Counted from the stretch's first letter, positions 2,449 through 64,000 are shown. The stretch: 64,000 nucleotides of DNA from Lingula anatina (GCA_051362555.1 CM120643.1:186001-250000); one strand, 5' to 3'. Notes: generated from the sequence alone by a model not told the origin. Translations and numbers: made by a program.

Positions 2449-5400
2449 CTAAACCGCACTATTTGGCAGCAAAGTGTCTGTGGGTCCTTCCTTCCCAGGG
2501 ATATCTGTAACCACCACGTTACACATCACAGCGTGGTAAGCGCCCTCTATCGACGTGGTGGCACTGGGATGACAGGGCGTGCAGCTCGTTTGACCCTGTT
2601 TGTCTTGGAATGTCCCCAGTGGGCACGGAAGACAGTTTTCTAGGTCACGTTGCGGGAGGAAGTAACCCTTGTCACACGGCACTAGAAGTAATGAACGTGA
2701 GATTTGTTAATGAGAAAAATTTGACAAAATGTTTACACTGAAACGCGGTTGATTCATTGTAAGATCTAAATGCAAAAAAAAAAAAAAAAAATACCAACAC
2801 GTACTACATCTATATTCAAAATAATGGAATATTCGTGAATCCATACCAACTACACTTACCACATAACCTGTTTTTGGTAAAGACACGTCCTTTCTCACAT
2901 AGCATCTGTGGTCTGGAAAAGGTGAAGGACGTTGTGTCAAGGTCAAACTCAGAGAGGGCTGCAGGTTGGAGCTGAGGCGAGTCACCTTCTACCAGCTTTT
3001 GTATACTGTTCTTAAGCGCAAATGAATCGCCCAAGATTTCTCTAAGGTTCTTCCTCTTGCACGTGGAGTCGCACCCAGGAGACACGACGTTTTCTTCTGG
3101 GTTTCTCAGCAGAACGCTGAGAGACACTCGGACCTCGGATGTGTCTGGCTGACTCCCGTCCTGACAGTCAGTACGTAAATTTTGCACCTGGATTGTAAAG
3201 TGCTCTTCTTTTATTTATTGATTATTTGAAAGTGGTCAAATTTCATTGTGACATACTTTATCAAGATACACATTTATTTGTCCTACATGTATGTAACATG
3301 TAACATGAAAAACGTATTTTTGTAAATTTCCTCAGAATGTTATTCCAGGAGTGCATGCCCCAGCAGTCACGTTACTCGCTACTCAAACCCCCCCTCCCCC
3401 CCACACACACTAAGACCCCCTAAGGCAGGTTCCCCTCTCCACTTCCACACCCCAGAATATGACATATCCTTGCGCCTCTACACCTCACACCCCTAGGGCA
3501 TGACATGTCCCTCCGCCTCCAAACCCTTAACTGTACAGATTAATGTTAAATACCAATTAATCTACCCAAAAGTTATTATTAACTGATTATAATAAGGAAA
3601 ACAGGATAATTTTTTTAAAGACTGGTGATCAGTAAATTCTGAGATATACTATACCGTACCTCACAGAGACCACGGCAGACATTGAACTTGTTAATTGCTT
3701 CTTGGATGGTGGCAGTGAACTCAGACGTGGCGATAGGAAGAGCATTGCAGGATTTCCTCGTCTCATAAGAAAAAGTTATCGGTAACTGAATGTCAACAAA
3801 GAACTCCCCTGAAACAATGATTAGATACTTTGAAGTTTAAAACAAAATGTGGACCAGTATTAGGTTAAATTGAATGAACTATGCTTCCGAATCTTTTGTT
3901 CCCTAAATAAATATGTGTTAACTGGATACGTATCAATCACCAAATCTGTTCGTCAATATGTCACATAATCGCCTTAACTGCAAGGCTGAAATAGTTTGTA
4001 TTGACGTACAGGGAATTCTTAGCAATAACTTTGTGATTTCTGTCGAATTTTAGAAAAAGAAGCCTGGTTCTGACAAAAAATCGCTCAATGCCGACAGTAG
4101 TTTGTCGTAAACAACTTGGCCGTTAATAAATAATGTCAAGCACTGTTGCTATGATAGCTATTTCATCCACATGTGTTAAATACTGTCACTATGATAGTTT
4201 CTATTTTCAGCAAATAAATACAGAGAAAAACTATAATATACTCTAATAATTCTGTGTGTGGCAGGTCACCATTTGCTACCAAAACTGTTCTTCACTGTGC
4301 AGTTACGACGCACCCACATAGTTCGATCTCGGCCTAGTACGACCTCAATATTCTACACTTACTGGTACATATGTATGTACATAGTTTGATCTCGGCCTAG
4401 TACGACCTTAATATTCTACACTTACTTGTACAGGCAGGAATCCTGGCCGACGCGTTCACCACCTGGTGTGACCAGACGAAATCTGTCCCCGCCCCACACG
4501 TGATGTAATTGTTTATACCGGAGACAAAGAAGAATCCCGGGTCACATTTAATGATGCACACTGCTCCGTTGTATTCGTCATTACGTTTGCACTCTAAGAA
4601 TCCGTTATCTGGCTTCTCGTCAATATCGCCGCAAGTTTTGTTCACTGAAAAAGATACATACATTTTATATTTTCACAGTTATAGTTCACCAGCGGCAAAC
4701 AAATGTGTTGTGAAATGATGACAACCATAGGTACAGTGTATGATGCTTCTATTGTATTTGTAAAAAACTTTTCACATGAGGGTAAATAAAGACTGAAAAT
4801 AAATTAACTCGTGAATGTGTAGAAACCTTGTTTCCCGGCTGGCCGCCTGTTTTTGAACACGTCTGAACTGTCCTTATTAGCGACACAACTCTGGGCACAT
4901 TGAAAGTTGATACAAAACACTGATACTTACGGACACATGTCTTTCCATCTGTATCCAACTCATATCCAGGGATGGAGCATGCGCAGGAGTAGCTGCCTTT
5001 TGAGTTGTGGCACTCTTGATTACAACCGCCATTGTTGGTTGCACATTCATCCACATCTAAAATAACGACATTTCTTTAGGGTTTACACCTTGAAGTGTCA
5101 AACACCACATGCATTGTAAAAGTAAAGGCTTCCTTTTCTTGCCTGTGAACTGCAGTTAACCTGCCACTGCATATCAAGAGCTAAATTTTAGTTTCATAAC
5201 GACAAGATGTTAGAGTGGTATGTGATAAACACGTCCATTGCTGTCTATCAGACTGGTTTACTGTTCCCCTACCTTGACAATGTGTTCCTGGTAAACCTTG
5301 ATAGCCCGTCTTGCACGTGCACGACTGCAGCGACGTCCCTAGCCCCGTAGTTTCAGAATTCTGTGGGCAGGGCAGACATGACGACGAAAAGATGTCACTC

Positions 5401-63700: not shown

Positions 63701-64000
63701 ATATAACTGTAGTACAAAATACAACTGTAGCTCCATACTACATTGTTAGCTGTGTTAAGTATTGTTTCGTGCGAGTTTAATTAGATTGCTCTCATTCTAA
63801 TTAATTTCCTATCTTAATAAATTACGTCATATCTTTTTGTTTCAGAAATCAGATGTAAGGCACATTCAGCACCTGTTAATGGCAGCGTGGTCTCATGTGG
63901 AACGAGAGTCGGCGAGACTTGCGTATTTGCGTGCGACGAAGGCCACGTGTTGGTAAACGGAAGTAGTGTACGCAGGTGCACAGAAACCGGAAGTGAGCAG
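57773..64000 (+). CDS. G6: secreted SVEP1-like mosaic proprotein (SP, pro, RVKR, TSP1, EGF, 5 CCP, GCC, CCP...), truncated by the window end
   Basis: Exons: 57773-57840 (MDRTLVVWFICALIGGASATLD), 58126-58315, 59044-59305, 59681-59866, 61422(or upstream acceptors)-61613, 61899-62072, 62396-62575, 63003-63176, 63433-63588, 63846->64000. Confidence 0.85.
58250..58448. repeat. ~80-bp direct duplication of the G6 exon-2 3' end and donor, separated by a G-rich spacer
   Basis: tggtttgaccgcggtgaggag...gaacaggtaagataagccac occurs twice. Confidence 0.9.
60048..60384. mobile_element. Kolobok-like MITE, copy 2 (inverted relative to 25359-25694)
   Basis: Same TIRs, TTAA on both flanks, reverse-complement internal homology. 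Confidence 0.85.
60607..61492. repeat. Six 135-150-bp tandem units, each (TAT)n + splice acceptor + 5' part of a CCP exon
   Basis: Unit exon starts at 60702, 60849, 60999, 61146, 61287 and 61422; all spacings are multiples of 3. Confidence 0.95.

What the first reader, a model, noticed from the sequence alone, without database searches (positions are those of the whole stretch)
2449..64000. Six-gene cluster of secreted proproteins: hypervariable, furin-exposed, AMP-like N-terminal peptide on a constant TSP1-EGF-CCP scaffold
Seen: five of six paralogs have SP + propeptide + R-x-K-R, then a short paralog-specific segment before TSP1. G2 has GFLGGIGKAVGGLLKGVVSIGGLLLGRGK, G3/G4 SWLGGIIKKITG, G5 GWRRIRIRVKR and G6 GWFDRGEEAVERY. 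G1 has [31 protein letters not shown] directly after its SP. Established: RxKR is the furin/proprotein-convertase site; SP-acidic pro-KR-amphipathic peptide is the layout of dermaseptin-family and other AMP precursors; TSP1, EGF and CCP modules typify complement-like proteins. Inference: a diversifying invertebrate immune or adhesive system in which a protease-unmasked membrane-active peptide is displayed on a long CCP stalk. Automatic annotation would probably hide this as 'SVEP1-like'.
Basis: partly seen in the sequence, partly recalled or inferred. Interest (0 to 1): 0.85.

Follow-up and report, generated by a model that had tools for sequence, protein, structure and literature searches.

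The report
Brachiopod stalk proteins with swappable tips
Six neighbouring genes of the brachiopod Lingula encode large, likely secreted rod-shaped proteins whose short front tips, predicted to be uncovered by a trimming enzyme, differ strongly from gene to gene and likely anchor the rod to different surfaces rather than act as antibiotics; four tips may also be calcium-binding through a vitamin K-dependent modification.

Summary
The six genes are real. G1, G5 and G6 are expressed and spliced as read. The organism is Lingula anatina, where NCBI calls them 'SVEP1', although they lack vWA and pentraxin domains. The furin sites and tip sequences are as stated. Across the family the tip is far more variable (15% identity) than the stalk (39-50%).

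The AMP reading does not generalise. Only G2 and G3-G5 have cationic tips; G1, G6 and four furin-type relatives (Lingula, Capitella, unnamed) are neutral or acidic. G1 lacks propeptide, TSP1 and EGF. The G5 tip ends in a second furin site. The tips show no positive selection (pN<pS), and the G5 tip is identical in a second allele.

The near-constant stalk of G3-G5 is explained by homogenisation, with a breakpoint at the helix/TSP1 border.

New observation: the G3-G6 propeptides carry F-x5-A-x2-F/Y, like the gamma-carboxylase recognition site, followed by a seven-Glu helix that is one-faced in G6. Best reading: a furin-exposed hydrophobic surface anchor on a CCP stalk, possibly gamma-carboxylated. 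No function was tested.

The parts
2449..11681 (-). G1: 18 exons, 1108 aa. Signal peptide, tip without propeptide, Gly/Arg/His-rich stretch, beta-rich DUF7023-like domain, 7 CCP, then the shared GCC2/CCP/EGF/SEA-like/GCC2 half. No TSP1, no N-terminal EGF
10444..10555 (-). G1 tip exon, spliced directly to the signal exon; a divergent version occurs in reads of two runs
9751..10119 (-). G1 domain replacing TSP1-EGF; weak DUF7023 match (23 bits, cutoff 27); no fold assigned
13930..22327 (+). G2, 1102 aa: SP, acidic pro, RMKR, tip, helix, TSP1, EGF, 5 CCP, GCC2, CCP, GCC2, EGF_CA, CCP-like, SEA-like with RRRRRR, GCC2, EGFs
14774..14872 (+). G2 furin site and Gly-rich amphipathic tip (first 18 residues +2, moment 0.57)
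24484..35961 (-). G3, intact; ends in an amphipathic helix instead of the C-terminal EGFs
35343..35495 (-). G3 head: F-x5-A-x2-F motif (35495-35466), RVKR, tip (35444-35412), seven-Glu helix (35411-35343)
37160..44994 (-). G4, intact; G3-type head with G5-type last exon, likely an unequal-crossover chimera
44443..44595 (-). G4 head: F-x5-A-x2-F motif, RVKR, tip, seven-Glu helix
46190..56372 (-). G5, intact and expressed; signal exon 56372-56290
54960..55118 (-). G5 head: F-x5-A-x2-Y motif (55118-55089), RVKR, Arg-rich tip (55067-55029) holding a second RVKR (55046-55035), seven-Glu helix
57773..64000 (+). G6, head-to-head with G5, expressed; runs off the window at residue 579 of 1083
58178..58315 (+). 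G6 head: full F-x5-A-x2-F-L motif (58178-58210), RVKR (58235-58246), short acidic tip, helix with Glu on one face
20549..21124 (+). G2 exon of the family-defining SEA-like domain with an internal polybasic site (canonical in G2 and G6, dibasic only in G3-G5, absent in G1)

Best explanation
These are likely secreted, roughly 1,030-1,110-residue CCP-stalk proteins of an undescribed family in which furin is predicted to remove a propeptide and expose a short hydrophobic or amphipathic tip that likely anchors the stalk to a membrane or other surface, as a tether rather than a killer. Shown: gene structures, expression and splicing of G1/G5/G6, the head layout, and a variable tip on a conserved stalk. 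Inferred: cleavage, and the tip folding only on contact (it has low confidence in the model). Also inferred: a charged helix pinned to TSP1 by an extra disulfide holds the tip out, and tips of different charge (cationic G2-G5, acidic G1/G6) address different surfaces. The CCP/GCC2 stalk would then bridge to a partner or matrix. In G3-G5, recombination has put old, distinct heads on one homogenised stalk.
For: A furin-type site followed by a Gly-rich hydrophobic start recurs in distant relatives: R-x-[KR]-R in 3 of 7 relatives with an N-terminus, and R-x-x-R in a fourth. Mean hydrophobicity of the first 11 residues is 0.5-0.9 in G1, G2, G3/4 and in P0014, P0015 and P0016. Two members have a tip without a furin site (G1, P0010), so the tip and not the cleavage is the constant. 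Tip identity is 15% and helix 21%, against 39-50% in the stalk over 28 pairs. G4 versus G5: pS 0.57-0.79 in the head but 0.13 in the TSP1 part of the same exon, and 96-100% DNA identity in 8 of 9 downstream exons (87% in the ninth). G6 lacks the Cys ending the helix together with one TSP1-loop Cys. G3-G5 also end in an amphipathic helix (moment 0.67-0.68).
Against: No membrane binding was tested. Amphipathicity is not above composition shuffles in any of the 15 segments tested. Two relatives (P0013, P0021) have no tip at all. The G5 and G6 tips are not hydrophobic overall (0.09 and 0.17), and the G5 tip could be removed at its second RVKR. No tissue or stage information was available.
Confidence: 0.4

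Rival explanations
1. G3-G6 are vitamin K-dependent proteins. The propeptide would dock on gamma-glutamyl carboxylase, the Glu-rich helix would be converted to Gla, and furin would then remove the propeptide. This leaves a hydrophobic tip plus a calcium-bridged helix that binds anionic membrane or calcium phosphate. It is compatible with the best explanation and would be its anchor chemistry in these four genes.
For: The recognition site is Phe-16, Ala-10, Leu-6 with hydrophobic -17 and -7 (PMC12647623; PMC5578492). G6 has F-x5-A-x2-F-L in full; G3/G4/G5 have F-x5-A-x2-F/Y with F at -17. Shuffle p is 0.013-0.032 each, and 0.006 for the full G6 motif. F, A, RVKR and five Glu are invariant in the four heads. 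All 7 helix Glu are kept between G4 and G5 at pS 0.57. G6 Glu lie on one helix face (0 of 5000 shuffles; 1 of 7 helices tested), the i/i+4 pattern described for mineral-binding Gla proteins and conantokin T (PMC12312033). The Lingula shell is apatite.
Against: The motif was noticed after the fact and is short. G3-G5 lack the -6 Leu, and in G6 the Phe sits at -23. Glu clustering is not significant in G4/G5 (p 0.22-0.23). The four heads may share the motif by descent (a G5+G6 clade is not rejected, p-AU 0.066). No Gla or UCMA Pfam hit at E<=10 and no match to solved Gla proteins. The motif is absent from G1, G2 and all 7 outside relatives. The genes are not in the shell proteomes checked. The presence of the carboxylase in Lingula was not tested.
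Confidence: 0.25
2. Ordinary extracellular matrix pro-proteins. The propeptide keeps them soluble, and its removal lets the tip and helix self-associate into oligomers or fibres. Tip variation is mostly relaxed constraint.
For: The tip is the least constrained part, yet pN<pS (0.43 versus 0.67). Some relatives lack it. A helix ending in C-x3-C is family-wide. The domain set is typical of matrix proteins.
Against: The G5 pro, tip and helix are identical (0 of 63 differences) in an allele whose signal peptide differs at 6 of 29 residues. Heads escaped the homogenisation that swept the G3-G5 stalks.
Confidence: 0.25
3. One reading: the tips are diversifying antimicrobial peptides unmasked by furin. 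In G5 the Arg-rich peptide would be released by the second furin site.
For: G2 (acidic pro, +2 amphipathic 18-mer, moment 0.57) and G5 (+6 over 11 residues, flanked by two RVKR) look AMP-like. The G1 tip exon is strongly polymorphic in reads (5 of 30 bases, 3 residue changes). Big defensins are a precedent for an ancestral N-terminal domain acting against bacteria (PMC6805989 abstract).
Against: G1, G6, P0015, P0016, P0014 and (by inspection) P0011 tips are neutral or acidic. The G3/G4 tip is 11 residues, +2, followed at once by an acidic run (first 18 residues -1). There is no positive selection and no allelic change in G5. No AMP family hit.
Confidence: 0.1

Closest known systems
SVEP1/polydom (NCBI label) and SCUBE-like mosaic proteins
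   Same: Secreted; CCP, Ephrin_rec_like (GCC2/GCC3) and EGF_CA modules. An internal polybasic site in a non-Pfam domain before a GCC2 repeat resembles SVEP1 (recalled, not tested).
   Different: No vWA, pentraxin, HYR or CUB hit; about 1,100 aa; starts with pro, tip, helix and TSP1-EGF. The Lingula shell 'SVEP1' is an unrelated 8,126-aa vWA/vWD protein.
Vitamin K-dependent Gla proteins (factor IX type, osteocalcin, GRP/UCMA, conantokins)
   Same: Signal peptide, F-x5-A propeptide, furin site, hydrophobic start, Glu-rich helix, then EGF-type modules (G3-G6).
   Different: No Gla domain or UCMA profile hit. The -6 Leu is present only in G6. GRP is reported absent from invertebrates (PMC13204790).
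Dermaseptin-type AMP precursors (layout recalled)
   Same: Signal peptide, acidic pro, basic cleavage site and Gly-rich amphipathic peptide in G2-G5.
   Different: The peptide is not the end of the precursor but continues into 1,000 residues; many family tips are not cationic; no family hit.
Big defensins
   Same: A hydrophobic N-terminal part joined to a disulfide-rich domain; furin processing recalled and suggested by the search listing.
   Different: No defensin domain; the partner is a long CCP stalk.
Properdin and complement control proteins
   Same: TSP1 and CCP folds; Foldseek returns CR1/CR2, factor H and beta-2-glycoprotein I.
   Different: Matches are generic CCP repeats at 18-27% identity; no protease, vWA or MACPF domain.

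Membership tests
SVEP1 | vWA domain and pentraxin domain | tested here: not met
   No such Pfam hit in 4 plus 5 full-length members
SVEP1 | CCP, Ephrin_rec_like and EGF modules | tested here: met
Dermaseptin-type AMP precursor | Acidic propiece before a basic cleavage site | tested here: inconclusive
   Net -2 to -5 in G2, G4, G5; +4 in G6; no propiece in G1
Dermaseptin-type AMP precursor | Cationic amphipathic mature peptide released as the end product | tested here: not met
   Peptide continues into helix and TSP1; only G5 has a second site; G1 and G6 tips are acidic
Dermaseptin-type AMP precursor | Antimicrobial or membrane-lytic activity | not testable with these tools
   needs assays
Vitamin K-dependent Gla proteins | Propeptide with Phe-16, Ala-10, Leu-6 spacing | tested here: inconclusive
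   All three in G6 (at -23); two of three plus aromatic -7 in G3-G5; absent in G1 and G2
Vitamin K-dependent Gla proteins | Glu cluster within reach downstream of the propeptide | tested here: met
   7 Glu within about 35 residues in G3-G6; one-faced in G6
Vitamin K-dependent Gla proteins | Gla domain or UCMA profile | tested here: not met
   No hit at E<=10
Vitamin K-dependent Gla proteins | Gla residues in the mature protein; carboxylase present in the organism | not testable with these tools
   No genome held; needs mass spectrometry
Lingula shell matrix proteins | Detected in the shell proteome | tested here: inconclusive
   Accessions of G2, G4 and G5 types absent from the 2026 supplement and not among its 3 sushi proteins; the G6 accession was hidden and G1's unknown; the 2015 table uses other ids

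The most novel reading that the evidence does not exclude
G3-G6 are the vitamin K-dependent proteins of a phosphate-shelled brachiopod: a vertebrate-type gamma-carboxylase docking propeptide was grafted onto a CCP stalk. After furin cleavage, each displays an exchangeable tip plus a calcium-bridged Gla helix, an independently built equivalent of the Gla-domain membrane anchor, with heads swapped between stalks by recombination.
Probability: 0.22. Interest if true: 0.8.

Novelty: new variant of a known kind. Interest (0 to 1): 0.5.

Why it matters
An apparently undescribed family of secreted CCP mosaics, hidden under the 'SVEP1' label in Lingula and unnamed in Capitella, carries a fast-changing, protease-gated tip on a conserved stalk. 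That is a design expected of a surface-recognition or adhesion system, and short synthetic peptides can test it. The carboxylase and its partner enzyme exist in invertebrates, yet fly knock-outs show no phenotype (PMC5578492). A substrate with a vertebrate-type docking site in an apatite-shelled animal would make the question of what invertebrate gamma-carboxylation is for directly testable. If both ideas fail, this is an ordinary tandem array of matrix proteins.

Tried and rejected
No whole genome is held, so further paralogs and the carboxylase gene could not be sought. No RNA holder was listed by words; runs came by species label. A profile of the four G3-G6 heads against 1.84 billion representatives gave 2 hits: the Lingula G4-type protein and a repetitive protein judged spurious. 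The head therefore has no detectable relatives by sequence, though a 4-sequence profile is weak. A three-copy complex of G2 residues 76-210 gave no answer (score 0.01, alignment not used). The G1 replacement domain gave pLDDT 49.6, best Z 3.6 and Atlas scores under 0.8, so no fold was assigned. The SEA-like region has no PDB sequence relative; 'SEA-like' is my reading from the model's secondary structure and from recall. Exon shuffling between G5 and G6 heads was not shown: DNA similarity lies within codon shuffles and a G5+G6 clade is not rejected. Resemblances to viral fusion peptides and to the cadherin N-terminal Trp were recalled only; there is no transmembrane anchor in the sequences, so a fusogen was set aside. 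Earlier scan findings: none. Literature: no paper with six family accessions; none relevant for furin/amphipathic/thrombospondin/sushi with Lingula or Capitella; none with five of six invertebrate-carboxylase terms. The library omits most subscription papers. The GGCX paper's propeptide alignment is a figure and could not be read.

Full report
Observation. Stored proteins map six genes: G1 minus 2449-11681, G2 plus 13930-22327, G3 minus 24484-35961, G4 minus 37160-44994, G5 minus 46190-56372, and G6 plus from 57773, leaving the window at residue 579 of 1083. G3-G5 show no stops within exons, and G1 built from read junctions gives an open frame of 1108 residues. Homologs name the organism as Lingula anatina, with the label 'SVEP1'.

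Expression. Nine RNA runs were offered by species label, and seven were laid. G5 and G6 are transcribed on the predicted strands, with signal exon joined to furin exon and on to TSP1, in 3 of 4 runs. G1 is transcribed strongly in 2 of 4 runs, weakly in a third and barely in the fourth; 449-471 reads in two runs continue from the signal exon directly into the tip exon. The two runs of one study show almost nothing, so expression depends on tissue or stage, which are hidden.

Architecture. G2 and G6: signal, pro, RxKR, tip, helix, TSP1, EGF, five CCP, GCC2, CCP, GCC2, EGF_CA, a CCP-like module, an unnamed alpha/beta domain with an internal polybasic site, GCC2 and EGFs. G3-G5 replace the last EGFs with an amphipathic helix. 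G1 has no propeptide and no TSP1-EGF; a beta-rich domain with a sub-threshold DUF7023 match takes their place. No member scanned has the vWA or pentraxin domain of SVEP1.

Family. The unnamed domain found 8 proteins as a single query and 18 as a profile: Lingula at several other loci, Capitella, and unnamed transcript contigs. Of 7 outside relatives with an N-terminus, 3 have R-x-[KR]-R and one has R-x-x-R, each followed by a Gly/Ala-rich hydrophobic start. One has a tip without a furin site and two have no tip. P0012 and P0018 are truncated at the N-terminus and were left out of this count, as were the fragments. All keep a charged helix before TSP1. So the layout is older than this cluster.

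Variability. Over 28 pairs of 8 members, mean identity is 15% in the tip, 21% in the helix and 39-50% in the stalk regions (the tip aligns poorly, so 15% is rough). Between G4 and G5, pN/pS is 0.27/0.79 in the pro, 0.43/0.67 in the tip, 0.15/0.57 in the helix and 0.02/0.13 in the TSP1 part of the same exon; downstream exons are mostly 96-100% identical. The stalk has thus been homogenised up to the helix/TSP1 border while the heads kept old divergence, and G4 looks like a G3-head/G5-tail chimera. The tip is the least constrained part but shows no excess of replacement changes; the counts are small. Within the species, a G5 allele differs at 6 of 29 signal residues and at 0 of 63 pro, tip and helix residues. 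G2 and G6 heads equal the NCBI proteins, which may not be independent of this assembly. The exception is G1, whose tip exon differs at 5 of 30 bases with 3 residue changes in two runs; allele or paralog cannot be told.

AMP test. First-11 charges are G1 -2, G2 +1, G3/G4 +2, G5 +6, G6 -3, P0014 0, P0015 -2 and P0016 0. The best 11-mer moment was never significant against shuffles of the same segment. The G6 pro is basic. The G5 tip contains a second RVKR. No AMP family or solved peptide matched. G2 and G5 remain individually AMP-like and worth an assay, but the shared property is a hydrophobic start, not cationicity.

Gla lead. The four heads G3-G6 share invariant F, AKA, RVKR, W, GEE and further Glu. 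Papers give the carboxylase site as Phe-16/Ala-10/Leu-6 with hydrophobic -17 and -7 (passages of PMC12647623; PMC5578492). G6 has F-x5-A-x2-F-L at -23. G4 and G5 have F at -17, A and an aromatic residue, without the Leu. Shuffle p values are 0.006-0.03, after the fact. Seven Glu follow; in G6 they lie on one helix face (0 of 5000 shuffles), in G4/G5 not significantly. Mineral-binding Gla proteins and conantokin T use i/i+4 spacing (passages of PMC12312033). That GRP/UCMA has a similar Phe at -17 is recalled, not checked. Against: no Gla or UCMA profile hit; absence in G1, G2 and outside relatives; possible shared descent (tree places G6 with P0015, but a G5+G6 clade is not rejected); and no detection in shell proteomes (supplement searches of PMC4595640 and PMC13425148; G1 and G6 accessions unknown).

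Mechanism. Most likely, furin trims the pro-region in the secretory path. The exposed tip, disordered in the model (pLDDT under 50), would fold on a lipid or other surface and be held out by a helix pinned to TSP1. The stalk, possibly nicked at the internal site, would bridge to a partner. Different tips would give different surface preferences; in G3-G6 calcium-bound Gla may add to the anchor. All of this beyond gene structure and expression is inference.

Papers seen: PMC4595640 (passages, one section, supplement searches), PMC13425148 (passages, supplement searches), PMC12647623 (passages; supplement search empty), PMC13204790, PMC5578492 and PMC12312033 (passages), PMC6805989 (abstract and outline). 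Others were seen as search listings only.

Verdict. A real and apparently undescribed variant of secreted CCP mosaic proteins. The antimicrobial story is weakened, the 'protease-exposed variable tip' stands, and the gamma-carboxylation lead is the more surprising possibility. Interest 0.5.

Noticed in passing
window 14986: The G2 head exon needs a non-canonical GC splice donor to stay in frame with the TSP1 exon; not checked with reads.
   Followed up: partly
window 58361-58466: The 3' half of the G6 furin exon, with its donor, is duplicated in the following intron.
   Followed up: no
window 60622-61492: A 147-bp array of 6 copies repeats the acceptor and 5' end of a G6 CCP exon.
   Followed up: no
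window 27731-27978 and 49446-49759: A 66-bp tandem repeat of the EGF_CA exon end with its donor in G3 (3.8 copies) and G5 (4.8), single in G4.
   Followed up: no
window 31808-33230: A 146-bp satellite-like array (9.8 copies) inside a G3 intron.
   Followed up: no
window 25354-25698 and 60044-60389: A 345-bp dispersed repeat in inverted orientation, abundant in RNA reads with unrelated flanks; likely a SINE or MITE.
   Followed up: no
window 1088-1492: Last exon of a protein kinase gene on the plus strand, tail to tail with G1.
   Followed up: no
window 24487-24594, 37163-37270, 46193-46300 (approx.): G3-G5 end in a strongly amphipathic helix of two types (G3 acidic, G4/G5 basic) in place of the family's C-terminal EGFs; NCBI merges these genes into isoforms of one locus.
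   Followed up: partly
window 56400-57770: G5 and G6 are head-to-head, with about 1.4 kb between start codons; a shared promoter is possible.
   Followed up: no
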